Assembly (NCBI RefSeq): GCF_965641715.1
Contig: NZ_OZ282453.1
Source: Escherichia coli
Lineage (GTDB): Bacteria; Pseudomonadota; Gammaproteobacteria; Enterobacterales; Enterobacteriaceae
Direction: 5' to 3' (one strand)
DNA length: 64,000 bases
Part shown: positions 2,043 to 46,463 of the stretch, piece after piece
Layout of the letters: the number at the start of each line of letters is the position of its first letter
Position numbering within the stretch: position 1 is the first letter of the stretch
Translations under genes and position numbers: made by a program
Notes under the pieces: generated by a model
Told to the model about the DNA's origin: nothing
Database searches by the model: none
Seen by the model: only the letters and a program-made list of their open reading frames with translations

Positions 2043-2810
2043 ATGTGGATTGGCATAATTAGCCTGTTTCCTGAAATGTTCCGCGCAATTACCGATTACG
2101 GGGTAACTGGCCGGGCAGTTAAAAATGGCCTGCTGAGCATCCAGAGCTGGAGTCCTCGCGACTTCACGCATGACCGGCACCGTACCGTGGACGATCGTCC
2201 TTACGGCGGCGGACCGGGGATGTTAATGATGGTGCAACCCTTGCGGGACGCCATTCATGCAGCAAAAGCCGCGGCGGGTGAAGGCGCAAAGGTGATTTAT
2301 CTGTCACCACAGGGACGCAAGCTTGATCAAGCGGGCGTCAGCGAGCTAGCAACGAATCAAAAATTGATTCTGGTGTGCGGTCGCTACGAAGGTATAGATG
2401 AGCGCGTGATCCAAACCGAAATTGACGAAGAATGGTCAATCGGCGATTACGTTCTCAGTGGTGGTGAGTTACCAGCAATGACGCTGATTGACTCCGTTTC
2501 CCGGTTTATTCCGGGAGTACTGGGACATGAAGCCTCGGCAACGGAAGATTCCTTTGCTGAAGGATTGCTGGATTGCCCGCACTATACGCGGCCTGAGGTG
2601 TTAGAAGGGATGGAAGTTCCGCCAGTGTTACTGTCGGGCAACCATGCCGAGATACGTCGCTGGCGTTTGAAACAGTCGCTGGGCCGTACCTGGCTTAGAA
2701 GACCTGAACTTCTGGAAAACCTGGCTCTGACTGAAGAGCAAGCAAGGTTGCTGGCGGAGTTCAAAACGGAACACGCACAACAGCAACATAAACATGATGG
2801 GATGGCGTAA
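2043..2810 (+). CDS. trmD: tRNA (guanine37-N1)-methyltransferase TrmD
   Basis: 255-aa [16 protein letters not shown]..., operon position. Confidence 0.95.
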
Positions 2811-2848
2811 GCCCCCGAGATATCAGTTTACCCAGGATAAGAGATTAA

Positions 2849-3199
<351 letters not shown>

Positions 3200-3227
3200 G
3201 ATTTCGCTTAAGCGACATCCTGTTAAG

Positions 3228-3258
3228 AAGGGCTGGCCAATTGGCTGGCCCTTTTTTT
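3228..3258. terminator. Intrinsic terminator after rplS (convergent with yfiB)
   Basis: aagggctggccaattggctggccc hairpin followed by T7 run. Confidence 0.7.
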
Positions 3259-3275
3259 ATCTGTTTGCTCGTGTT

Positions 3276-3758
3276 TTAAGGGGTAGTAATCACCACTGCG
3301 ACGCGGCGGTTCTCGGCGCGGCCCTGGGCGGTCTTGTTACTGGCTATGGGATATTTTTTTCCTAAACCCTGTGCGGTGAGATTGCTGCGCGGAATTTGTC
3401 CACCCTTAGCCCATGCATCGGCCACGACATTCGCCCGTTTCAATGATAAGCCTTCGTTGTAACTGTCTTCACCATAGTTATCGGTGTGTCCATCCATACG
3501 GGCATGTGTTAGCCCTGTCGAGGCCAATTTGGCTGCCATGGTTTGGATCTGTTGCTGGCTTTCCGGGAGCAATTTGTAGTCATTTTTTGCGAACAGAATG
3601 GCATCTGATAAGCCCAGCGACCAGTCGCCGGCGGATTCAGTAAATCCATAAGATTGCATAGCGGCGACTTGCTCAGGAGTAAACTTTCCCTGAGGGGACT
3701 GGCAGCCAGTCAGTATTAGTGAGGTGAAAATCAGGGGTGCTACCAGGTGCTTTATCAT
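3276..3758 (-). CDS. yfiB: OmpA-family outer-membrane lipoprotein YfiB
   Basis: Lipobox LILTGCQ and OmpA-like C-terminal domain (GHTDNYG..., NRRV); yfiRNB operon. Confidence 0.9.
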   Translation of the reverse strand: MIKHLVAPLIFTSLILTGCQSPQGKFTPEQVAAMQSYGFTESAGDWSLGLSDAILFAKNDYKLLPESQQQIQTMAAKLASTGLTHARMDGHTDNYGEDSYNEGLSLKRANVVADAWAKGGQIPRSNLTAQGLGKKYPIASNKTAQGRAENRRVAVVITTP

Positions 3759-3773
3759 ATCGATATATCCTTG

Positions 3774-5000
3774 TTATCTCACCAGCTTTTCGGCACGCTG
3801 GTGTTTGGCCTGATACATATTGTGATCGGCAAGCTCTTGTAATTTTTCCGCAGAGGCGTGCTCAATGGTCATCGCGTAACCAATGCTTAATGTCATGGTG
3901 GTCTGATGGCCATTATTAAGATCAAACGGGAGATTAAAGATTTGTGTCAGTGCTGAGCATATCTGCTGCACTTCAGATTCCGACTGTACATCATAGAGCA
4001 CCATAGCGAATTCATCGCCGCCCAGGCGGTATGCTTTATGTCGCAGCCCGCCAAATTCAGCTAACCGTTTTGCGATTTCAATCAAGACTCTATCGCCCGT
4101 CGCATGACCCCAGGTATCATTGATATATTTGAAATTATCGCCATCAAGAAATAGTAACGCCGACGTTTTTCGGGCATCGGAATTGTTCATCAACGTATTG
4201 ATGCCGCTACGAAACGCTGCGCGGTTAGCCAGCCCGGTTAATGGGTCATGTAGCGCGGTACGCAGAAGCTGCGCATTTTTGGCCTGTAAACGAAGCTGCC
4301 ACTCTTCCATTTCATCCAGCAGACTGTTGAAGTCGAGAGCGAAGCGGTGAAACTCAGCGATACGTTCTTCCGAAACTCGTCGGGAAAAATTGCGGTTGGA
4401 ACGCACATCATGTACGACATCGGTGATATTTTTCAGTGCTTCCACCAGGCCATTGTGCAAATGGCGGGTGAGGGTAATTGCGATTCCTGATGCCAGCAGA
4501 ATACAACCGGTCAGTACGGCGAGCGAAAACCAGATAAAATGGCTGATTGAACTGTCGCGAGCGGTTAAGCGTACTTCGCCAATGGTTTCACCATTGTGAC
4601 GAATCGGCTGAATGATGGGGGCAGGGAAGAGCCAGTGGCTTATGAAATTGCTGAAAGTATCGCCTGGATCCTTACGGGTGTAATGCCAGGATGCCAGAAT
4701 ATTTTGCTGCTTATCACGTACTTCTGCAGTTGAAAATTGCCCTTGCTGGCCCAGCGCTGCCAGTGTTTCAGTTGCTGCAGGGCCATCGGCAAAAACGACA
4801 GCTGCTTCCAGACTGTAAGTCATTGTTGCTGCTGTCAGTGCCAGGTTTTTTTGCGCGTACTGTTTCAGGGTCAGCACCGAGGTCACGGAAAGCAGCAACC
4901 AGATCAGCATCATAGTGATAAATATGCTGGTCATACTGATGTTGCGTAATGCTCTTTTAAACGTGGGGCGCTTATTAAGAGAATTATCGTTATCCATCAT
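3774..5000 (-). CDS. dgcN: Membrane diguanylate cyclase DgcN (YfiN)
   Basis: 408-aa ORF with TM segments, HAMP-like linker and GGDEF motif ([10 protein letters not shown]). Confidence 0.9.
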
Positions 5001-9784: not shown

Positions 9785-9840
9785 GTTTGTTTCCTTAAGT
9801 GACTTTAGTACAGTACCCGTACTGTTTTCACGCTGTCAAC
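9785..9840 (-). promoter_or_regulatory. pheL-pheA promoter region (-35 TTGACA at 9834..9839)
   Basis: Minus strand gTTGACAgcgtgaaaacagtacgggTACTGTACTAAAgtc upstream of pheL; the -10 choice is ambiguous. Confidence 0.6.
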
Positions 9841-9865
9841 AAAAAACGCGCCCGAAGGTGCGTTG
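9839..9865. repeat. attL core
   Basis: acaaaaaacgcgcccgaaggTgcgttg; 26/27 identical to 45803..45829. Confidence 0.85.
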
Positions 9866-9951: not shown

Positions 9952-10941
9952 TTATGTGGATGAAATGTGGATGCCTCCTTTTAACGGATTAAGTGAAATT
10001 GCATCCTGGAGGAAATCAGGAGCGAGGTGCGCATAGGTCATAGTTTGCTGGATCGTGGCGTGCCCCATAATTCGCTGGAGCGTAAGTATATTTCCTCCAT
10101 TAATCATAAAGTGAGCTGCAAAGGTATGGCGTAGAACATGTACTGCCTGCCCTTTTGGTAGATCAGGTTTAACACTGCGAAGCACCTTGCGATATTCCTC
10201 ATAATTGACGTCAAACAAAAGGCCGGATTTCTTTGTTTTGATCTCGCTAACAACTTCATCAGAGACAGGAATAATTCGAACTTTTCCGTTTTTAGTTTTG
10301 TTAAACGTCACGCGGTTATTGATGATGTGTTCCGCGCGCAGATTTTTCGCTTCTCCCCATCTCGCACCAGTACTGAGACAAAGTAGCGTAATCCGCCGGG
10401 CATCACCGCTTACTGCATCCAGTAATTTGGCAATTTCTTCCGTGGTGAGATACGTCATTTCGGGTGATTTTCGTTTCAAAGAGGGGAGGGCGCGGAGCGG
10501 ATTTTCTCCGTGAAATTCCCCGGCATTTGCCAGGAGTGTAAACATTCCTCCGAGATCCGACTCATCACGCCGAACAGTAGACTCTTTTACTCCCAAAGAT
10601 AAACGGGAGCTTCGATAAGCGGCCATGAAACGAGCATTAATCTGGCTAACCCTTGGATCATTCATTTCTTTGATGATTTTTTTCAACCTGGTTAGAACGC
10701 CGTTAGCATATGGCTTATTGCGTCCACCCAATTCCCACCATAACGGAAGCAGATCTGAGAGATGACGTTGCTCTGTTGGCTTTTCAAGCCATTCCTTATC
10801 GTGCATGTGGCTGAGAACATAACGCTCAAAGGCCACTGCATCTGCCTTTTTCTTAAAAATCCGCTGAATCCGACGTCCACTTCGGCCACGCGGTCTAACA
10901 TCCACTTTATACCGTCCACCATCGAGTGCTTTAATTGCCAT
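9952..10941 (-). CDS. int: Tyrosine recombinase / phage integrase
   Basis: C-terminal catalytic motifs (ARWGEA..., HVLRHTFAAHF, GHATIQQTMTYAHL); ATG 10941 has a ggaggg RBS, while the ORF-track start 10974 has none. Confidence 0.9.
   Translation of the reverse strand: MAIKALDGGRYKVDVRPRGRSGRRIQRIFKKKADAVAFERYVLSHMHDKEWLEKPTEQRHLSDLLPLWWELGGRNKPYANGVLTRLKKIIKEMNDPRVSQINARFMAAYRSSRLSLGVKESTVRRDESDLGGMFTLLANAGEFHGENPLRALPSLKRKSPEMTYLTTEEIAKLLDAVSGDARRITLLCLSTGARWGEAKNLRAEHIINNRVTFNKTKNGKVRIIPVSDEVVSEIKTKKSGLLFDVNYEEYRKVLRSVKPDLPKGQAVHVLRHTFAAHFMINGGNILTLQRIMGHATIQQTMTYAHLAPDFLQDAISLNPLKGGIHISST
9954..9973 (+). repeat. Candidate Int arm-type sites (2 x ATGTGGATG, 11-bp phasing)
   Basis: atgtggatg at 9954-9962 and 9965-9973; matching TGTGGA pair near attR (45743-45762). 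Confidence 0.45.
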
Positions 10942-11007
10942 TGGCAAGCCCTCCGGTGAAACGAGGAAAGACATTTCCAGTTTGTAAAACGTAAGAATAA
11001 TAAAGGG

Positions 11008-31993: not shown

Positions 31994-34288
31994 ATGAGTA
32001 CCACAACACGAAAATTTAAAACCGTTATCACCGATACGGGTGCAAAAAAATTAGCTCAGGCAGCCGCGCCAGATGGTAAGCCTGTCCGCCTGACTCATAT
32101 GGCCGTGGGCGACGGTGGCGGCACGTTGCCCACACCAGACAGTAAGCAGACCCGTCTGGTGCATGAGGTGTGGCGACACACTGTTAATCGCGTCATCCTG
32201 GACGCAACACATCAGAACCGCATTATTGCGGAGCTGGTTATTCCTCCAGAAACGGGCGGATTCTGGATCCGGGAAATTGGTGTGTTTGATGAGCACGGCG
32301 ATTTAATCGCAGTAGGCAATACTGCCGAAAGTTACAAGCCAACCGTTGCCGAAGGGTCAGGACGTGCACAAACATTTCGCACCATTCTGACCGTATCCAG
32401 CACTGCCACCGTGGCGCTTACCGTGGATAACACCATGGTAATGGCCACAGTGGATTACGTGGATGACAAACTGAAAGAGCATGAACACTCACGACGTCAC
32501 CCGGACGCCTCGCTGACCGCAAAAGGCTTTGTTCAACTTAGCAGCGCCACTAACAGCACGTCTGAAACGCTTGCGGCAACGCCAAAGGCTGTTAAGGCGG
32601 CATATGACCTGGCTAATGGCAAATACACCGCACAGGACGCTACCACTGCGCGAAAAGGGATAGTTCAGCTCAGTAGCGCCACCAACAGCACGTCTGAAAC
32701 GCAGGCTGCAACGCCGAAAGCAGTAAAGGCCGCGTATGACCTTGCTAACGCAAAATATACCGCTCAGGACGCCACGACGGCACAAAAAGGGATAGTCCAG
32801 CTCAGTAGTGCCACCAACAGCACGTCTGAAACACTGGCCGCGACATCGAAAGCGGTTAAGGCGGTAATGGATGAAACGAACAAGAAAGCGCCCTTAAACA
32901 GTCCTGCGCTGACCGGAACGCCAACAACGCCAACTGCGCGACAGGGAACGAATAATACCCAAATCGCAAGCACGGCTTTCGTTATGGCTGCGATTGCCGC
33001 CCTTGTAGATTCGTCACCTGACGCACTGAATACGCTGAACGAGTTAGCGGCGGCGCTGGGAAACGACCCGAATTTTGCGACCACCATGACTAACGCGCTT
33101 GCGGGTAAGCAACCGAAAGATGCCACCCTGACGGCGCTGGCCGGGCTTGCTACTGCGGCAGACAGGTTTCCGTATTTTACGGGGAATGATGTCGCCAGCC
33201 TGGCAACCCTGACAAAAGTCGGGCGGGATATTCTTGCGAAATCGACCGTTGCTGCCGTTATCGAATACCTCGGTTTACAGGAAACGGTAAACAGGGCTGG
33301 TAACGCCGTGCAAAAAAATGGCGATACTTTGTCCGGTGGGCTTACTTTTGAAAATGACTCAATCCTTGCCTGGATTCGAAATACTGACTGGGCGAAGATT
33401 GGATTTAAAAATGATGCCGATGGTGACACTGATTCATACATGTGGTTTGAGACAGGCGACAACGGCAATGAATATTTCAAATGGAGAAGCAAACAAAGCA
33501 CCACAACAAAAGACCTGATGAATCTTAAATGGGATGCTTTGTATGTTCTTGTTAAAGCTCTTTTCAGCAGTGAAGTAAAAATATCGACAGTCAATGCACT
33601 GAGGATATTTAATTCATCTTTTGGTGCCATTTTTCGCCGTTCTGAAGAATGCCTGCATATCATCCCTACACGAGAGAATGAGGGGGAAAATGGTAATATA
33701 GGGCCACTACGTCCCTTTACGCTTAATCTCAGAACTGGCCGCATAACTATGGGGCATGGTCTGGATGTTACAGGAGATATAACAACTAACGCCTGGGTGT
33801 ATGCAAACAGGTTTGCTATTAATAGTGGCTCAACCTCATGGATTGATATGCGAAACCAGAATGTCATTTTTGGTAGAAACGCAGTATCAACAAGTTCTGC
33901 GCAGGCTTTGTTAAGACAAGACCATGCAGAACGCAAATTTTTTGTCGGTGGACTTGGTAACTACCAGTTTGGTTTTTACATGATTAATAACTCAAGGACA
34001 GCCAATGGCACCGATGGTCAGGCGTACATGGACAATAACGGTAACTGGCTTTGTGGCTCGCAAGTTATTCCTGGCAACTATGGCAATTTTGATTCCAGAT
34101 ATGTGAGAGATGTTCGCCTGGGTACGCGAGTTGTTCAATTGATGGCGCGTGGTGGTCGTTATGAAAAAGCCGGACACGCAATTACCGGATTAAGAATCAT
34201 TGGTGAAGTAGATGGCGATGATGAAGCCATCTTCAGGCCAATACAAAAATACATCAATGGCACATGGTATAACGTCGCACAGGTGTAA
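31994..34288 (+). CDS. H: Tail fibre protein (P2 gpH-like N-terminus fused to a Mu S / P1 S-type invertible C-terminus)
   Basis: 764 aa; 3 x 44-aa fibre repeats; crossover site at 33258-33283; C-terminal ...FRPIQKYINGTWYNVAQV. Confidence 0.9.
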   Translation: MSTTTRKFKTVITDTGAKKLAQAAAPDGKPVRLTHMAVGDGGGTLPTPDSKQTRLVHEVWRHTVNRVILDATHQNRIIAELVIPPETGGFWIREIGVFDEHGDLIAVGNTAESYKPTVAEGSGRAQTFRTILTVSSTATVALTVDNTMVMATVDYVDDKLKEHEHSRRHPDASLTAKGFVQLSSATNSTSETLAATPKAVKAAYDLANGKYTAQDATTARKGIVQLSSATNSTSETQAATPKAVKAAYDLANAKYTAQDATTAQKGIVQLSSATNSTSETLAATSKAVKAVMDETNKKAPLNSPALTGTPTTPTARQGTNNTQIASTAFVMAAIAALVDSSPDALNTLNELAAALGNDPNFATTMTNALAGKQPKDATLTALAGLATAADRFPYFTGNDVASLATLTKVGRDILAKSTVAAVIEYLGLQETVNRAGNAVQKNGDTLSGGLTFENDSILAWIRNTDWAKIGFKNDADGDTDSYMWFETGDNGNEYFKWRSKQSTTTKDLMNLKWDALYVLVKALFSSEVKISTVNALRIFNSSFGAIFRRSEECLHIIPTRENEGENGNIGPLRPFTLNLRTGRITMGHGLDVTGDITTNAWVYANRFAINSGSTSWIDMRNQNVIFGRNAVSTSSAQALLRQDHAERKFFVGGLGNYQFGFYMINNSRTANGTDGQAYMDNNGNWLCGSQVIPGNYGNFDSRYVRDVRLGTRVVQLMARGGRYEKAGHAITGLRIIGEVDGDDEAIFRPIQKYINGTWYNVAQV
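32519..32890 (+). repeat. Three tandem 132-bp (44-aa) tail-fibre repeats
   Basis: KG(F/I)VQLSSATNSTSET-AAT-KAVKA-YDLAN-KYTAQDATTA repeats starting at 32522, 32654 and 32786. Confidence 0.85.
33258..33283 (+). repeat. Left recombination site (gix/cix-like)
   Basis: ttatcgaatacctcggtttacaggaa; close to the remembered gix sequence TTATCCAAAACCTCGGTTTACAGGAA. Confidence 0.8.
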
Positions 34289-42758: not shown

Positions 42759-43868
42759 ATGACCGACACCACCATGCAATTGCTCAGTCAGGGCACAGAC
42801 CCCGTGAAAATGCCGGATTTTGATATTCTCGCGGAGGGTAAAACGCTGTCAGGCGTGGCAGAGCGCCTGATGAGCCTGTCAGTGACCGACAACCGGGGAT
42901 TTGAAGCGGACCAGCTCACCATCACGCTGGATGATGCGGATGGTCAGTTGCAGCTACCGCCACGGGGCGCGCGCCTGACGGTTCTCATTGGCTGGAAAGG
43001 AGAACCGCTGACAGAAAAAGGCACTTACATTGTTGATGAAATCGCTCACGAAGGACCGCCGGACAGGCTGACTGTTTCAGCCAGAAGCGCAGATTTTCGG
43101 GATGAATTTAACGTTAAACGTGAGGTGTCCTGGCATGATGTGACCGTTGAGCGTGTGGTATCCGCCATCGCTCATCGGTACGGTCTGAAACCGCAAATCA
43201 GCGAAATGCTGATGGATATCGAAATCGACCACGCCGACCAGACCGAAGAAAGCGACATGTCCTTTCTTACGCGCATGGCGGAAATGCTGGGCGCAATCAC
43301 CACGGTAAAAAGCGGTAATCTGTTATTCATTATGCCAGGCGGTGGCGTGAACGCACAGGGCCAGCCGTTGCCCTCGTTCGCCATCACGCGCAGCAGTGGC
43401 GATCGCCATCAGTTCCGCATTGCTGACCGCGAAGCGTATACGGGGGTACGCGCTTACTGGCTTGATCTTAATTACGGGAAAAAGAAAAAAGTCAGCGTGA
43501 AACGCCGCAAACCGCCAAAACCCAAAAAGGAGAAAAGCAGCAGCCGTGAAGGTGATTATATGGAAGGTGCGGAAGGCAATGTGTTTGTGTTACGCAAGAC
43601 TTATCAGAACGAGCAGGCAGCAAGACGCGCAGCGGCGGCAAAGTGGCAGCAACTACAACGCGGAGCCGCATCATTCTCCATCACGCTGACACGTGGACGA
43701 GCAGAACTCTACCCCGAAATGCATGGCACGGTAACAGGATTTAAAAGCGAGATTGATAATCAGGACTGGATTATTGCGAAAGCCGAGCACACCATTGATA
43801 ACAGTGGCTTTACCACGCAGCTTGAGCTTGAAGCAAAAATCCCGGAATGGATAGCAGAAACAGAGTGA
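42759..43868 (+). CDS. D: Late control / tail protein D (P2 gpD-like)
   Basis: ATG 42759 follows gggaggga; 369 aa; the earlier part of ORF 42627.. is likely non-coding. Confidence 0.85.
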   Translation: MTDTTMQLLSQGTDPVKMPDFDILAEGKTLSGVAERLMSLSVTDNRGFEADQLTITLDDADGQLQLPPRGARLTVLIGWKGEPLTEKGTYIVDEIAHEGPPDRLTVSARSADFRDEFNVKREVSWHDVTVERVVSAIAHRYGLKPQISEMLMDIEIDHADQTEESDMSFLTRMAEMLGAITTVKSGNLLFIMPGGGVNAQGQPLPSFAITRSSGDRHQFRIADREAYTGVRAYWLDLNYGKKKKVSVKRRKPPKPKKEKSSSREGDYMEGAEGNVFVLRKTYQNEQAARRAAAAKWQQLQRGAASFSITLTRGRAELYPEMHGTVTGFKSEIDNQDWIIAKAEHTIDNSGFTTQLELEAKIPEWIAETE

Positions 43869-43910
43869 GCAACTTAGAATAGCGGCAGCACCACGTTAAG
43901 GGAGGTCGCT

Positions 43911-44171
43911 ATGTTCCGTTGTCCGCTTTGTGGCGCATCTGCCCGTATCCGCACCAGTCGTCCGGAAAATGATTCAAACACCGTGCGGCAAAAGTATTAC
44001 CAGTGTAACAATCTGGAATGCGGCGTATGCTTCTCAACACTGGAAGCTTTCCATAAATTCACATCGAAACACGCCTCCGGCGTTCACTCTTCAGAAGGTA
44101 TCCCGTGGCATGAGCTGCCAGCTTCACACAGGGGAAACAATCAGATGAGTTTGCCTTTATCTCAGAATTAA
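43911..44171 (+). CDS. ogr: Ogr/Delta-type zinc-finger late transcription activator
   Basis: MFRCPLCGASARIRTSR...YYQCNNLECGVCF versus P2 Ogr MFHCPLCQHAAHARTSR...YHQCQNVNCSATF. Confidence 0.88.
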   Translation: MFRCPLCGASARIRTSRPENDSNTVRQKYYQCNNLECGVCFSTLEAFHKFTSKHASGVHSSEGIPWHELPASHRGNNQMSLPLSQN

Positions 44172-44259
44172 CAGGCAGAATTGCCGGAGTAACAAAAAAG
44201 CGATAGATTACGCGCGGGTGCCTTTCGGCTGATGGTCGGAGGGAATACCCGAAGGCCAG

Positions 44260-44496
44260 ATGTGGAAAGGCCCCGGAAAACATTTCTGTTTAACCGAGGC
44301 CCTAACACTTCTTACCTTCGCAAGTAGAAGGTTAGCGCCTCTCCTCTCAGGAGACAAGCGTTATGACGCAAATTCCGTTAAAAACCCTGTTACTTTGCAT
44401 AACTGCGGTAGCGATAATCTGGATCCTCCACACATCACCGTGCGAGTTACGATTCAGGTTTGCTGGCACGGAAATTGCGGCATTCTTACTATGTAA
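44260..44496 (+). CDS. mok-like overlapping reading frame of the hok-type locus
   Basis: ATG 44260 follows gaagg; overlaps the whole toxin ORF in another frame, as mok does in R1 hok/sok. Confidence 0.4.
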   Translation: MWKGPGKHFCLTEALTLLTFASRRLAPLLSGDKRYDANSVKNPVTLHNCGSDNLDPPHITVRVTIQVCWHGNCGILTM

Positions 44497-44503
44497 TAAG
44501 TAA
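44363..44503 (+). CDS. Hok/Gef-family type I toxin, 46 aa (not in the ORF track)
   Basis: MTQIPLKTLLLCITAVAIIWILHTSPCELRFRFAGTEIAAFLLCNK: TM helix plus the CE(L/I)R...E(V/I)AAF signature shared with HokA/HokB/Hok-R1; the SD aggaga is sequestered in tctcct-ctc-aggaga. Confidence 0.75.
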   Translation: MTQIPLKTLLLCITAVAIIWILHTSPCELRFRFAGTEIAAFLLCNK

Positions 44504-44512
44504 GATAACCGC

Positions 44513-44534
44513 GACGGGGGAGTAATCCCCCGTC
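44513..44534 (+). other. GC-rich hairpin at the 3' end of the hok-like mRNA
   Basis: gacggggg agtaat cccccgtc. Confidence 0.5.
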
Positions 44535-44590
44535 AATCGGTTGCTAAGGTTGGTCGAAACGGCATCCTATCTCACAGACATGAACAACAA

Positions 44591-44623
44591 ACCCGCAGCG
44601 TAAAAACTGCGGGTTTTCTTTTT
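44591..44623 (+). terminator. Intrinsic terminator
   Basis: acccgcag / ctgcgggt stem followed by tttctttttg. Confidence 0.75.
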
Positions 44624-44664
44624 GCTACCCTCACAAATGAGGGCACCATACATAAGCAATAGGC

Positions 44665-44715
44665 ATAACAGATCGATGCAATAAATCCGATCGATAAAAA
44701 CGATCGATTTGTTAT
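44665..44715 (+). promoter_or_regulatory. Dyad-symmetric region with three GATCGAT (Dam GATC) sites upstream of the com-like gene
   Basis: gatcgat at 44671, 44689 and 44702; outer arms ataacagatcgat / atcgatttgttat. Confidence 0.6.
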
Positions 44716-44752
44716 CATATCGGCAGCAGTAACCACACAAGAGGTGCCGCAA

Positions 44753-44950
44753 ATGACGCAAAATGTACGATGCAAAAATTGCAACAAACTACTTGCCCGC
44801 GCCTCATTTCACTACATTGAAATAAAATGTCCGCGCTGCAAAACACTTAACCAGATAACGAGAGCCATCGAGCACCCCACACACATGAGGAGTTATGACC
44901 GTGGGGATCGCAATCCAGCACCAACCAGCACATACGCCAGAACACACTAA
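44753..44950 (+). CDS. com: Mu Com-like zinc-finger translational regulator
   Basis: MTQNVRCKNCNKLLARASFHYIEIKCPRCKTLNQITRAIEHPT versus Mu Com MKSIRCKNCNKLLFKADSFDHIEIRCPRCKRHIIMLNACEHPT; aagaggtg RBS. Confidence 0.85.
   Translation: MTQNVRCKNCNKLLARASFHYIEIKCPRCKTLNQITRAIEHPTHMRSYDRGDRNPAPTSTYARTH
44875..44906 (+). promoter_or_regulatory. Stem-loop enclosing the SD and ATG of the methyltransferase gene
   Basis: CCCCAC (44875-44880) / GTGGGG (44901-44906) flank gaggag and ATG 44895. Confidence 0.5.
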
Positions 44951-45701
44951 GGTTTATCAGACTGACAATGTCACGCTCTGTTGTGGGAATGCACTGGAAA
45001 TATTGCCGCTGATTGAGCCAGAAAGCATTGATGCCTTAATCACTGACCCGCCTTACAGTTCGGGTGCGACACACAAGGCCGGACGCACCAATCAGGGCAG
45101 CCATGCAAAATATCTGAACGGCGAGAACCTTCACCGCTTTGATGGGTTCGCGGGTGAAAACATGGACGCCCGTTCGTGGGCTTACTGGACACAATTATGG
45201 ATGGCACAGGCACACCGCGCAGTCAGGCCAGGCGGTTATGCCATGGTATTTACTGACTGGCGACAACTACCAGCTTTAACCGATGCGTTTCAGGCCAGTG
45301 GCTTTACATGGCGCGGCATCATTGCGTGGAACAAGGGGAGGGGGTCACGAACACCACATACCGGGTATTTCCGGCATCAGTGCGAATACATCGTCTGGGG
45401 CAGCAAAGGCCATTTAGATAAATCGCCTTCGGGGCCGTTCGACGGCTGCATGACGTACCCGGTTATCCCGTCAAAGAAAATGCACCCGACCGGAAAACCA
45501 GAAGAACTAATGGCGGAACTGGTCAGGACTGTGAATAGTGGCGGAACAGTCCTTGATCCTTTTATGGGGTCAGGGACAACGGGTGTGGCTGCACTGAAAG
45601 CAGGGCGAAAATTTATTGGTATAGAAACCAGTGATCATTATTTTGAGGTAGCAGCGCAGCGGCTTCGGGGGACTATTACCACAACCATTTCGGCTACATA
45701 A
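44895..45701 (+). CDS. Beta-class N6-adenine/N4-cytosine DNA methyltransferase
   Basis: Motif IV DPPY (res 51-54) lies N-terminal to motif I VLDPFMGSGTTG; the start lies 56 nt inside the com-like ORF. Confidence 0.85.
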   Translation: MTVGIAIQHQPAHTPEHTKVYQTDNVTLCCGNALEILPLIEPESIDALITDPPYSSGATHKAGRTNQGSHAKYLNGENLHRFDGFAGENMDARSWAYWTQLWMAQAHRAVRPGGYAMVFTDWRQLPALTDAFQASGFTWRGIIAWNKGRGSRTPHTGYFRHQCEYIVWGSKGHLDKSPSGPFDGCMTYPVIPSKKMHPTGKPEELMAELVRTVNSGGTVLDPFMGSGTTGVAALKAGRKFIGIETSDHYFEVAAQRLRGTITTTISAT

Positions 45702-45705
45702 GACA

Positions 45706-45728
45706 AAGCCCGCATTTTTTGCGGGCTT
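45706..45728 (+). terminator. Hairpin after the methyltransferase gene
   Basis: aagcccgc attttttt gcgggctt. Confidence 0.6.
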
Positions 45729-45742
45729 GTATATCATTACTG

Positions 45743-45762
45743 ATGTGGACAGTTTGTGGATG
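45743..45762 (+). repeat. Candidate Int arm-type sites near attR (2 x TGTGGA, 11-bp phasing)
   Basis: atgtggac 45743-45750 and tgtggatg 45755-45762. Confidence 0.45.
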
Positions 45763-45802
45763 TTTATAAGAAATAAGCTAATAGAAACAATTTGTTAGCT
45801 TT

Positions 45803-45829
45803 ACAAAAAACGCGCCCGAAGGCGCGTTG
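45803..45829. repeat. attR core, which is also the functional raiA intrinsic terminator
   Basis: acaaaaaacgcgcccgaaggCgcgttg; minus strand reads caacgcgccttcgggcgcgttttttgt. Confidence 0.85.
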
Positions 45830-45851
45830 GCGATACACTCAATATAAAGGA

Positions 45852-46247
<396 letters not shown>

Positions 46248-46463
46248 TCAAAATGTGTGATGGAAATCTCATAATTTTGTCACTTTTTGTCAACGAATCT
46301 TTTTTGTGAGAAATCGCAGGAAGAGGTGTTTTTTTACTTGAGGAATATCTCAAAGCGAGCCATATTTGATGAGATCGATAGTGACTAAATCGCTTCAGTT
46401 TCACAACTGACAGAATAAAAAAACGGCAGCTCAAGGGCTGCCGTTTTGTGTTTCAGGTTTCTG

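What the first reader, a model, noticed from the sequence alone, without database searches (positions are those of the whole stretch)
44665..45701. Mu mom-style control region (three clustered GATC sites, Com zinc finger, sequestered start) driving a conventional DNA methyltransferase instead of Mom
Seen directly:
- A 65-aa ORF (ATG 44753) shares the four-Cys core and flanking residues of the phage Mu Com protein (RCKNCNKLL...IEI-CPRCK...EHPT).
- Its last 56 nt overlap the start of a 268-aa beta-class MTase, with DPPY preceding FxGxG.
- The MTase SD (gaggag) and ATG (44895) lie inside a loop closed by CCCCAC/GTGGGG (44875-44906).
- 40-90 bp upstream of com, a dyad-symmetric block carries three GATCGAT sites within 38 bp (44671, 44689, 44702).

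Established knowledge, in Mu:
- com overlaps mom;
- Com binds the mRNA to open a stem-loop that hides the mom start;
- mom transcription is gated by Dam methylation of three closely spaced GATC sites that otherwise bind OxyR.

Inference: the whole three-layer mom safety circuit has been transplanted onto an ordinary N6A/N4C methyltransferase at the ogr-attR end of a P2-like phage. This implies a late-expressed, potentially toxic anti-restriction methylase. The GATCGAT or ATCGAT motif may even be its own target, which would allow epigenetic feedback.
Basis: partly seen in the sequence, partly recalled or inferred. Interest (0 to 1): 0.78.

Follow-up and report, generated by a model that had tools for sequence, protein, structure and literature searches.

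The report
Com-gated methyltransferase cassette on P2-like prophage
At the right end of a P2-like prophage sits a small two-gene cassette in which a phage Mu-type zinc-finger protein (Com), a hidden start codon and a Dam/OxyR-type DNA switch appear to control a DNA methyltransferase; the sequence features are real, but this is one more member of an already known family of "Com plus DNA-modification enzyme" modules, not a new kind of system.

Summary
The resemblance to Mu is homology. The three GATC sites have the same 18/13-nt spacing as in Mu Pmom and are the best OxyR-consensus match in the 64-kb window. The Com target motif (CCAUCGAG) and the CCCAC/GUGGG stem align base for base with Mu.

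Refinements:
- The homologue of mom's sequestered start is GUG 44901, in the 3' arm, not AUG 44895.
- The conserved "EHPT" is probably kept at least partly because it encodes the RNA operator.
- There is no Mu C-type site and no P2 Ogr-type site. A sigma70-like extended -10 promoter lies inside the OxyR/GATC block, so late expression is not shown.
- The GATCGAT repeats belong to com, whatever the payload, so they are not evidence for the methyltransferase's own target.

Com-gated cassettes carry interchangeable payloads: Mom, C5, D12, Hin1523-type and PF01555 methyltransferases. Com plus PF01555 pairs were already annotated in P2-like phages KS5 and Smp131, with enzymes 40-47% identical to this one. 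The cassette occurs in about 3% of complete E. coli genomes and is auto-annotated there. Verdict: new member of a known kind, moderate interest. Function and specificity are untested.

The parts
44589..44616 (+). Intrinsic terminator (10-bp stem, T-run) that separates the cassette from ogr and hok upstream
   Evidence: a homologous terminator lies upstream in L066 and L069
44659..44708 (.). OxyR-type binding block carrying three Dam sites (GATC at 44671, 44689, 44702; spacing 18 and 13 nt)
   Evidence: Best OxyR-consensus matches in the whole window, both strands: 15 of 20 defined positions at 44659 and 44668, against 13/20 for Mu mom and 14/20 for agn43. Same 18/13 spacing as Mu; agn43 has 19/13. 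Retained in 163 of about 170 E. coli genomes that carry the cassette.
44691..44718 (+). Predicted sigma70 promoter: -35 TCGATA (44691-96), 16-nt spacer, extended -10 TGtTATCAT (44710-18). Inferred TSS about 44725. GATC II lies in the -35 hexamer and GATC III in the spacer.
   Evidence: The only promoter-like hit in 44150-45850. A positionally equivalent hit with the same -10 occurs in the diverged homologue L069 and in the cluster-less L066. No such hit in the Mu-like L099. The TSS is inferred, not measured.
44753..44950 (+). com: 65-aa CCCC zinc-ribbon protein (SD AGAGG 44741-45)
44862..44875 (+). Putative Com-binding hairpin GAGC-CAUCGA-GCAC containing the Com motif 5'-CCNNNGAG-3' (CCAUCGAG, 44865-72). 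The third pair is an A.A mismatch.
   Evidence: Motif as defined in PMC6483171. Present 30 nt upstream of the start. Family-wide covariation of the 4-bp stem: 88.9% of cells paired, 18 double changes, 0 of 500 shuffles reach the observed score.
44875..44906 (+). Translation-inhibition stem-loop. Outer stem 44875-80/44901-06; inner stem 44884-88/44893-97; SD GAGGAG 44887-92; AUG 44895; GUG 44901.
   Evidence: CCCAC and GTGGG are invariant across seven aligned operators with beta-class, C5 and Mom payloads.
44901..45701 (+). Beta-class (PF01555) DNA amino-methyltransferase, 266 aa from GUG 44901 (268 aa if from AUG 44895)
   Evidence: the database representative is 266 aa; pLDDT 86.9; fold like CcrM, M.BceJIV, M1.HpyAVI and N4CMT. 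L069 has no AUG in the loop, only the GUG.
45706..45728 (.). GC-rich stem-loop directly after the methyltransferase stop; likely end of the operon
   Evidence: scored on the - strand; sequence
45803..45829 (.). attR core (27-nt direct repeat of 9839-9865), about 100 nt downstream of the cassette

Best explanation
This is a self-contained, horizontally mobile 'Com-gated DNA-modification cassette' carried as cargo at the ogr-attR end of a P2-like prophage.

Proposed mechanism:
1. Transcription starts at a sigma70-type extended -10 promoter (inferred TSS about 44725). Its -35 hexamer and spacer lie inside an OxyR-type site with three Dam targets.
2. Unmethylated or OxyR-occupied DNA is off. Dam-methylated DNA cannot bind OxyR and is on. 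This is inferred from homology to Mu Pmom and resemblance to agn43.
3. The bicistronic mRNA yields Com first. The methyltransferase start (most likely GUG 44901, with SD GAGGAG 8 nt upstream) is locked in a two-tier stem-loop.
4. Com binds the adjacent CCAUCGAG hairpin and frees the start, so enzyme is made only once Com has accumulated. This is inferred from Mu.
5. The enzyme is a compact beta-class amino-methyltransferase, probably m6A (DPPY motif). It most plausibly methylates replicating or packaged phage DNA to evade restriction in the next host.

Shown here: sequence homology, motif and structure conservation, and modular payload exchange.
Inferred: OxyR and Dam dependence, Com dependence, time of expression, enzyme specificity and toxicity.
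For: Proteins: PF10122 Com and PF01555 methyltransferase.

RNA operator:
- GCC-N3-GAGCA(C/U)CCCAC...GUGGG aligns with Mu and with E. coli Mu-like phages.
- The Com motif CC(N)2-3GAG was defined experimentally (PMC6483171).
- It recurs about 30-36 nt upstream of the payload start in Mu-like and P2-like phages and in MAG loci.
- The hairpin stem covaries.
- The payload start codon is almost fully paired in 9 of 11 lineages, even where the stem sequences are unrelated, e.g. Haemophilus GCCAUAG/CUAUGGC.

GUG start:
- L069 has no AUG in the loop.
- The SD spacing is 8 nt to the GUG and 2 nt to the AUG.
- The database representative is 266 aa.
- Mom and C5 payloads behind related com genes also begin GUG-GGN.

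DNA switch:
- GATC spacing is identical to Mu, and 29 of 38 bases are identical by eye.
- It is the top OxyR-consensus score in the window.
- All three GATC sites are kept in L069, whose spacers have diverged.
- The block is kept in 163 of about 170 E. coli carriers.

Promoter.

Precedents: com plus non-Mom methyltransferases in FluMu, Pnm1 and B3 (PMC3299994); KS5 Com plus an N4/N6 methylase (PMC3091744).
Against: - Nothing here is experimental.
- The window's Com hairpin has an A.A mismatch at its third pair; 11 of 27 family members also mismatch there.
- The enterobacterial TIS arms never vary, so they give no covariation evidence.
- The 5' arm also encodes part of Com, so protein constraint cannot be fully separated from RNA constraint. 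However, H41P variants change the protein and keep the stem.
- Variants that lost the GATC block still have intact genes (L008, L066-68), so that layer is dispensable.
- Homologues of the enzyme at 55-62% identity sit without com in other prophages. The enzyme therefore need not be unusually toxic.
- The promoter and TSS are only consensus predictions.
Confidence: 0.72

Rival explanations
1. The cassette is a Dam/OxyR phase-variable (bistable ON/OFF) locus expressed in a sub-population of lysogens, like agn43 or the P22 gtr operon. It would not be a strictly lytic, late anti-restriction function. The methyltransferase would then create epigenetic heterogeneity in the host, or pre-protect it.
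For: - The promoter looks activator-independent (sigma70 type with extended -10), and no Ogr or C site is present.
- The OxyR/GATC block overlaps the -35 hexamer and the spacer.
- The 13-nt GATC pair next to the promoter resembles gtr(P22), where GATC3 and GATC4 lie at -46 and -33 and expression phase-varies (PMC2909390).
- agn43 has near-identical GATC spacing.
- That paper notes it is unknown whether mom expression phase-varies.
Against: - Related com-linked methyltransferases were silent in lysogens (PMC3299994).
- The Com/TIS gate argues for keeping expression minimal.
- A terminator-insulated cargo gene next to att could equally be switched on by replication-driven titration of OxyR.
- There are no methylome or reporter data.
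Confidence: 0.2
2. The GATC/OxyR block is an inherited relic of a Mu-like ancestor with no regulatory role in the P2-like context. Control would rest on the promoter and on Com/TIS only.
For: - Cluster-less variants have intact com and methyltransferase and still give a promoter-like hit (L066-68, L008).
- Com plus PF01555 cassettes in the Burkholderia and Stenotrophomonas phages KS5 and Smp131 have no such block.
Against: - All three GATCs and their spacing are kept in L069 although the spacers diverged.
- 163 of about 170 E. coli carriers keep the block, and none of 5426 genomes has the collapsed form.
- It is the best OxyR-consensus match in 64 kb.
Confidence: 0.12
3. Methyltransferase translation is activated mainly in cis by ribosomes translating com through the stem-loop (translational coupling), not by Com protein binding the mRNA.
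For: The com ORF runs through the whole stem-loop and ends 44-50 nt past the methyltransferase start. The same overlap occurs in most family members.
Against: - In Mu, Com binds the hairpin next to the TIS and activates mom translation (PMC6483171). To my recollection of the older Mu literature, not checked here, it also acts in trans.
- The CC(N)2-3GAG motif and its covarying stem are conserved even where com and the payload do not overlap, as in Haemophilus, which has a 56-nt gap.
Confidence: 0.1
4. One reading: GATCGAT or ATCGAT is the methyltransferase's own recognition site, giving epigenetic self-feedback.
For: None specific. A promiscuous adenine methyltransferase would incidentally also methylate these GATCs and could then block OxyR binding.
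Against: - The same block precedes com when the payload is Mom or a C5 cytosine methyltransferase.
- agn43 has a similar block with no methyltransferase at all.
- Relatives of the enzyme occur without the block.
Confidence: 0.04

Closest known systems
Phage Mu com-mom operon (Pmom with Dam/OxyR control, Com, TIS)
   Same: - Com zinc ribbon, 59.5% identical over residues 3-43.
- com overlaps the payload gene.
- Com motif CCNNNGAG directly 5' of a CCCAC/GUGGG stem, with a GUG in the 3' arm.
- Three GATCs with 18/13 spacing.
   Different: - The payload is a PF01555 methyltransferase, not Mom (PF25680).
- There is no C-activator dyad.
- GATC III lies 51 nt from the com ATG, against 78 nt in Mu, so the OxyR block overlaps the predicted promoter instead of lying upstream of it.
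- The host element is a P2-like phage, not a transposable one.
com plus non-specific m6A methyltransferase modules of Mu-like prophages (FluMu Hin1523, Hia5, Pnm1 Nma1821; phage B3) - Drozdz et al. 2012, PMC3299994
   Same: A Com homologue followed by a methyltransferase at the mom position. A Com site or TIS was suggested for hin1523. The enzymes are silent in lysogens. Here the Haemophilus loci show CCUUGAG plus a start-sequestering stem.
   Different: Those enzymes have the permuted motif order, with FxGxG before DPPY at about residue 194. They share only motif-level similarity with this beta-class enzyme. They sit in Mu-like phages, and no GATC triplet was found in the 130 nt upstream of com.
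P2-like phages KS5 (gp21 Com / gp20 N4-N6 methylase; Lynch et al. 2010, PMC3091744) and Smp131
   Same: A P2-like phage with Com overlapping a PF01555 methyltransferase that is 40% (KS5) or 47% (Smp131) identical to this one. The CC(N)2-3GAG motif lies at -32, and the SD or start is paired.
   Different: The genome position differs: the tail-fibre/sheath junction in KS5 and next to the portal gene in Smp131. There is no GATC/OxyR block. The TIS topology differs, with a long-range stem enclosing the Com hairpin. These were annotated only; the regulation was not analysed.
Dam/OxyR epigenetic switches agn43 (E. coli) and gtr (phage P22)
   Same: Clustered GATCs inside an OxyR site: agn43 spacing 19/13, and gtr has GATC pairs 13 nt apart with the site overlapping the promoter.
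   Different: Phase variation is proven for those loci and untested here. Neither has a Com/TIS translational layer or a methyltransferase payload.
E. coli Mu-like prophages with com-mom or com-C5 methyltransferase (e.g. the Mu-like insert in LC727895; IMG/VR loci L070-L106)
   Same: These have the closest regulatory DNA. GATC II and III lie at -64 and -51 from the com ATG. Com is 60-65% identical. The operator is GAGCGCC-N3-GAGCACCCCAC...GUGGGG. The payload starts GUG-GGN.
   Different: The payload is Mom or a PF00145 C5 methyltransferase. GATC I is degenerate. No sigma70-like promoter was detected in the one representative scanned (L099).

Membership tests
Mu-type Com/TIS translational control module | Com protein: small CCCC zinc ribbon (PF10122) | tested here: met
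   E=9e-12, 44.7 bits against a cut-off of 22.9. All four Cys, R6 and the CPRC motif are invariant across Mu, KS5 and Smp131.
Mu-type Com/TIS translational control module | com lies immediately upstream of, or overlapping, the controlled DNA-modification gene in one operon | tested here: met
   56-nt overlap (50 nt from the GUG), same strand, with no terminator between them
Mu-type Com/TIS translational control module | Com target: short hairpin carrying 5'-CC(N)2-3GAG-3' directly 5' of the inhibitory stem | tested here: met
   CCAUCGAG at 44865-72, abutting CCCCAC. The stem is C-G, G-C, A.A, G-C. The family stem covaries. The A.A mismatch weakens the local hairpin.
Mu-type Com/TIS translational control module | Payload start codon or SD sequestered in a stem-loop (TIS) | tested here: met
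   P(unpaired) <= 0.01 for both AUG 44895 and GUG 44901. z = -2.6 to -2.7. 9 of 11 lineages show the same.
Mu-type Com/TIS translational control module | Translation of the payload requires Com binding to the mRNA | not testable with these tools
   Needs reporter fusions with and without com, plus EMSA or SHAPE
Mu com-mom operon in the strict sense | Payload is Mom (PF25680, acetamido-adenine modification) | tested here: not met
   The payload is PF01555. Mu Mom scores PF25680 at E=2e-75.
Mu com-mom operon in the strict sense | Promoter depends on the late activator C (TTAT-N6-ATAA dyad upstream of a poor -35; the dyad definition is from my own knowledge and from reading Mu Pmom) | tested here: not met
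   No match with up to 1 mismatch in 44600-44760
Dam/OxyR-controlled promoters (mom, agn43, gtr) | Several GATC sites inside a sequence matching the OxyR tetramer consensus | tested here: met
   Three GATCs with 18/13 spacing. 15 of 20 consensus positions, the best in the window and higher than Mu (13) and agn43 (14).
Dam/OxyR-controlled promoters (mom, agn43, gtr) | OxyR binds unmethylated DNA only, and expression depends on dam and oxyR | not testable with these tools
   Needs EMSA with methylated and unmethylated DNA, and dam and oxyR mutants
P2 late (Ogr-dependent) promoters | TGT-N12-ACA dyad centred near -55 (definition from my own knowledge of P2 late promoters) | tested here: not met
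   None with up to 1 mismatch in 44550-44760. There are 7 exact sites elsewhere in the prophage, one of them inside com at 44828.
Beta-class N6A/N4C DNA methyltransferases (PF01555) | Motif IV (D/S)PPY precedes motif I FxGxG, with a Rossmann fold like CcrM, RsrI or PvuII | tested here: met
   DPPY at 51-54, FMGSG at about 223. PF01555 E=3e-33. PDB sequence hits M1.HpyAVI at 1e-20 and CcrM at 1e-19. Model pLDDT 86.9; Foldseek E=1e-15 with TM 0.6-0.8.
Beta-class N6A/N4C DNA methyltransferases (PF01555) | Catalytic activity, target base and recognition sequence | not testable with these tools
   DPPY favours m6A. No separate target-recognition domain is seen, and the low-confidence loops are residues 51-90 and 151-160. 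Specificity cannot be read from the sequence.
Hin1523/Hia5 non-specific m6A methyltransferases | Sequence family with FxGxG N-terminal and DPPY near residue 194 | tested here: not met
   Only motif-level hits in permuted order; best E=0.005 over 45 aa

The most novel reading that the evidence does not exclude
In lysogens the cassette acts as a heritable Dam/OxyR ON/OFF switch (agn43/gtr-like) that phase-varies a promiscuous adenine methyltransferase. Because such an enzyme would also methylate the GATC adenines in its own operator, the ON state would be self-locking. That would make a prophage-borne, recombination-free 'phasevarion' present in about 3% of E. coli genomes. The Com/TIS gate would set a threshold that keeps leaky OFF-state transcripts untranslated.
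Probability: 0.1. Interest if true: 0.75.

Novelty: new member of a known kind. Interest (0 to 1): 0.36.

Why it matters
The cassette is common. It occurs in about 170 of 5426 complete E. coli genomes, and also in Salmonella and in many IMG/VR prophage contigs. It encodes an uncharacterised methyltransferase that is probably silent under laboratory conditions, so it may be missed in methylome studies of uninduced cultures.

If the predicted controls work, three things follow:
- It would be a compact, portable three-part expression gate (methylation-sensitive promoter, RNA-binding activator, hidden start) that phages reuse for at least five unrelated DNA-modification enzymes.
- It would be a candidate for anti-restriction, and so for host-range effects in P2-like phages.
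- It would offer a tractable E. coli system for a question explicitly left open in PMC2909390: whether mom-type Dam/OxyR promoters phase-vary.

The comparative data also give two practical corrections. The likely start is GUG 44901. The RefSeq product name 'Com family DNA-binding transcriptional regulator' is probably wrong, because Mu Com binds RNA.

Tried and rejected
- M.EcoGII/M.EcoGI link, recalled from memory: the paper (PMC5778455) never mentions com, mom or upstream elements, and its enzyme is 349 aa on another prophage. Dropped.
- Ogr-dependent late promoter: no TGT-N12-ACA upstream of com. Rejected.
- Mu C-type activator site: absent. The 9-nt TAACCACAC shared with Pmom lies only 13 nt from the com ATG, so it cannot serve a promoter there.
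- An Rfam family for the operator: none. The only hit in 43800-46300 is sok.
- NCBIfam naming of Com gave no hit. The methyltransferase matches only sub-threshold models (PRK13699, CcrM, YhdJ-type).
- Covariation in the enterobacterial TIS: impossible, because the arms are invariant. I used cross-lineage start-codon accessibility instead.
- A six-sequence Com alignment was too divergent for the search for related loci. A three-sequence alignment worked.
- Literature searches for a described Dam/OxyR-controlled prophage methyltransferase, or for P2-like com-methyltransferase regulation, found only annotation-level mentions.
- Structure prediction and fold search confirmed the beta-class fold but could not assign specificity.
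Full report
**1. Observation**

Reading 44400-45900 and the ORF list confirms each item.
- com runs from ATG 44753 to the stop at 44950 and encodes 65 aa.
- A 268-aa ORF spans 44895-45701 in another frame, overlapping com by 56 nt.
- Its motif order is ITDPPYSSG followed by DPFMGSGTTG, which is beta-class.
- CCCCAC (44875-80) and GTGGGG (44901-06) enclose GAGGAG (44887-92) and ATG 44895.
- GATCGAT occurs at 44671, 44689 and 44702.

Pfam gives Zn_ribbon_Com (PF10122, 9e-12) for the small ORF, N6_N4_Mtase (PF01555, 3e-33) for the large one, and Ogr_Delta for 43911-44171.

Chance is excluded on several counts.
- The pattern GATC-N14-GATC-N9-GATC occurs once in the window and in none of 100 shuffles.
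- The stem-loop folds at -14.3 to -17.5 kcal/mol, with z about -2.6 to -2.7.
- Both candidate start codons are at least 99% paired in the ensemble of the predicted transcript.

The prophage is bounded by 27-nt repeats at 9839-9865 and 45803-45829. The integrase lies at the left end and raiA immediately to the right. The cassette is therefore the last cargo before attR.

**2. The resemblance to Mu is homology**

I fetched Mu and read its com-mom region.
- Mu's three GATCs (L002 860, 878, 891) have exactly the window's 18/13-nt spacing. The 38-nt blocks are about 76% identical by eye.
- Mu's operator AAUGCCUGCGAGCAUCCCAC-GGAGAAACAUU-GUGGG aligns with the window's GAGAGCCAUCGAGCACCCCAC-...-GUGGGG.
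- The experimentally defined Com recognition motif is 5'-CC(N)2-3GAG-3' in a hexaloop hairpin next to the TIS (PMC6483171). It is present as CCAUCGAG at 44865-72.

Variants with H41P (GAGCAC to GAGCCC) change the protein but keep the stem. That suggests RNA constraint contributes to the conservation of this stretch.

**3. The start codon**

In Mu the mom start is the GUG in the 3' arm of the TIS (PMC6483171). Here GUG 44901 is in frame with AUG 44895.
- The SD is 8 nt from the GUG but only 2 nt from the AUG.
- The 73%-identical homologue L069 has no AUG in the loop, only GUG-GGG-AAC.
- The public 90%-cluster representative is 266 aa.
- Mom and C5-methyltransferase payloads behind related com genes also begin GUG-GGN.

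I therefore take 44901 as the likely start. The AUG is in any case paired in an inner stem.

**4. Comparative evidence for the mechanism**

A genome scan with a Com alignment, an IMG/VR scan and a phage tblastn search gave more than 110 loci. Downstream of com I found five payload kinds:
- Mom (PF25680);
- C5 methyltransferases (PF00145);
- D12 N6A methyltransferases (PF02086);
- Hin1523-type enzymes;
- PF01555 enzymes.

Across 27 distinct operators the four-pair Com hairpin is 88.9% paired. It has 18 double-sided changes and a covariation score of 0.477 against 0.21 in shuffles (0 of 500 reach it). Slid registers collapse. The third pair is often mismatched, and it is A.A in the window.

In 9 of 11 lineages the payload start codon has P(unpaired) <= 0.05, although the stems differ completely in sequence. 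In KS5 the SD is paired instead.

In enterobacterial loci the operator, including the first payload codons, stays constant while the payload changes. This is direct evidence for modular exchange.

**5. Transcription**

A strong terminator at 44589-44616 insulates the cassette. The only sigma70-like site in 44150-45850 is TCGATA-16-TGtTATCAT at 44691-44718.
- Positionally equivalent hits with the same extended -10 occur in L069 and in the cluster-less L066. No such hit occurs in the Mu-like L099.
- There is no Ogr box and no C dyad.
- The best matches to the OxyR consensus anywhere in the window, on either strand, are at 44659 and 44668. They score 15/20, against 13 for Mu mom and 14 for agn43.
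- agn43 has GATC spacing 19/13.
- In P22 gtr, GATC pairs 13 nt apart overlap the promoter, and expression phase-varies (PMC2909390).

With the inferred TSS near 44725, the GATCs lie at about -54, -36 and -23. Bound OxyR would therefore occlude the -35 hexamer.

Conservation supports a function.
- L069 keeps all three GATCs in a diverged background.
- 163 of about 170 E. coli carriers keep the block, and none has the collapsed form.
- Rare variants lost it by collapse between the GATCGAT repeats and still have intact genes (L008, L066-68). This layer is therefore dispensable.

**6. The enzyme**

It belongs to a very large phage-associated family, with more than 5800 hits at E <= 1e-20.
- It is 40% identical to KS5 gp20 and 47% identical to the Smp131 methyltransferase, both of which are Com-linked.
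- Relatives at 55-62% identity sit without com inside late, lysis or early operons of other prophages.
- The AlphaFold model (pLDDT 86.9) matches N4CMT, CcrM, M.BceJIV and M1.HpyAVI at 19-26% identity.
- DPPY favours m6A. Specificity cannot be inferred.
- It is unrelated in motif order to the Hin1523/Hia5 enzymes.

**7. What is known**

- Com plus non-Mom methyltransferases at the mom position were described for FluMu, Pnm1, Hia and B3. A suggested Com site was noted, and the enzymes were silent in lysogens (PMC3299994).
- The P2-like phage KS5 was annotated in 2010 with a 'Com translational regulator' overlapping an N4/N6 methylase (PMC3091744). Smp131 is annotated likewise.
- The E. coli cassette itself is auto-annotated in RefSeq and in phage Chuche.
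- I found no paper that analyses its regulation or activity.

It is therefore a new member of a known kind. Three points look new at the level of detail:
- the Mu-type Dam/OxyR block is retained in front of a non-Mom payload;
- that block is fused with an activator-independent promoter;
- the GUG-GGN start is shared across payload families.

**8. Verdict**

The core interpretation is supported by homology and comparative structure. 'Late expression' and 'own-target feedback' are not supported. Confidence is about 0.7 that the cassette is a Com/TIS-gated and probably Dam/OxyR-gated phage methyltransferase module. The main open alternative is agn43/gtr-like phase variation in lysogens.

Noticed in passing
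window 44216-44503: A hok/sok-like type I toxin-antitoxin module lies between ogr and com. It has a Hok/Gef-type ORF at 44363-44503 and an Rfam sok (RF01794) hit at 44216-44374 (47 bits, E=7e-9, below the gathering score of 59). It is annotated Hok/Gef in UMNF18 and 'MokW-like' in phage Chuche.
   Followed up: partly
window 9839-9865 and 45803-45829: 27-nt direct repeats (26/27 identical) that look like the att cores of a roughly 36-kb P2-like prophage. The integrase ORF is at 9952-10974 (-). The repeat contains the GC-rich stem-loop just downstream of raiA, which looks like its terminator.
   Followed up: partly
window 32521-32916: Three tandem copies of a 132-nt unit (100%, 80% and 61% identity to the reference copy) inside the prophage, presumably in a tail-fibre-type gene.
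   Followed up: no
window 44828-44845: An exact Ogr-box-like TGT-N12-ACA lies inside com, in the codons for CPRCKT. If it were used, it would place a start near the methyltransferase SD and bypass the 5' arm of the stem. It is absent in Mu and in L003, so it is probably chance.
   Followed up: partly
L017, L028, L032 (Bacillota and Syntrophomonas MAGs), about 2490-4200: Com-family zinc-ribbon ORFs that carry GAGAGCC-N2-3-GAGCCCC at their 3' end are followed by thiolase genes, or by a contig end in L028, rather than by DNA-modification genes. Com-type control may extend beyond phage methyltransferases, or the adjacency may be accidental.
   Followed up: no
L008 (contig labelled Vagococcus sp. 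WN89Y), 2380-3434: An enterobacterial-type com-methyltransferase cassette (Com 89% identical) sits in a genome labelled as a Gram-positive Vagococcus. It has only one GATCGAT copy left. This is either contamination or mis-binning, or recent transfer.
   Followed up: no
L115-L119: Homologues of the methyltransferase at 55-62% identity sit without com inside operons of other prophages: between holin and lysozyme, before a large gene that precedes the Mu-type portal, or in an early region after the repressor. They overlap their neighbours at start and stop.
   Followed up: partly
L120 (E. coli UMNF18), 2694-2891: RefSeq names the small protein 'Com family DNA-binding transcriptional regulator', whereas Mu Com is an RNA-binding translational activator. 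UMNF18 also has an IS4 between raiA and bamD that the window lacks. Otherwise it is 99.9% identical over the cassette.
   Followed up: partly
L003 2655, L069 2652, L070 and L099 2655, Mu L002 1108: Three unrelated payload families (beta-class methyltransferase, C5 methyltransferase, Mom) behind enterobacterial com genes all begin with GUG-GGN (VGN or VGK). These codons are the 3' arm of the inhibitory stem, so the recombination junction lies a few codons inside the payload.
   Followed up: yes
window 44731-44739: The 9-nt TAACCACAC is shared with the C-binding region of Mu Pmom (AATAACCACACTC). Here it lies only 13 nt upstream of the com ATG and has no TTAT-N6-ATAA dyad. It may be a relic of a Mu-type promoter after a deletion.
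   Followed up: partly
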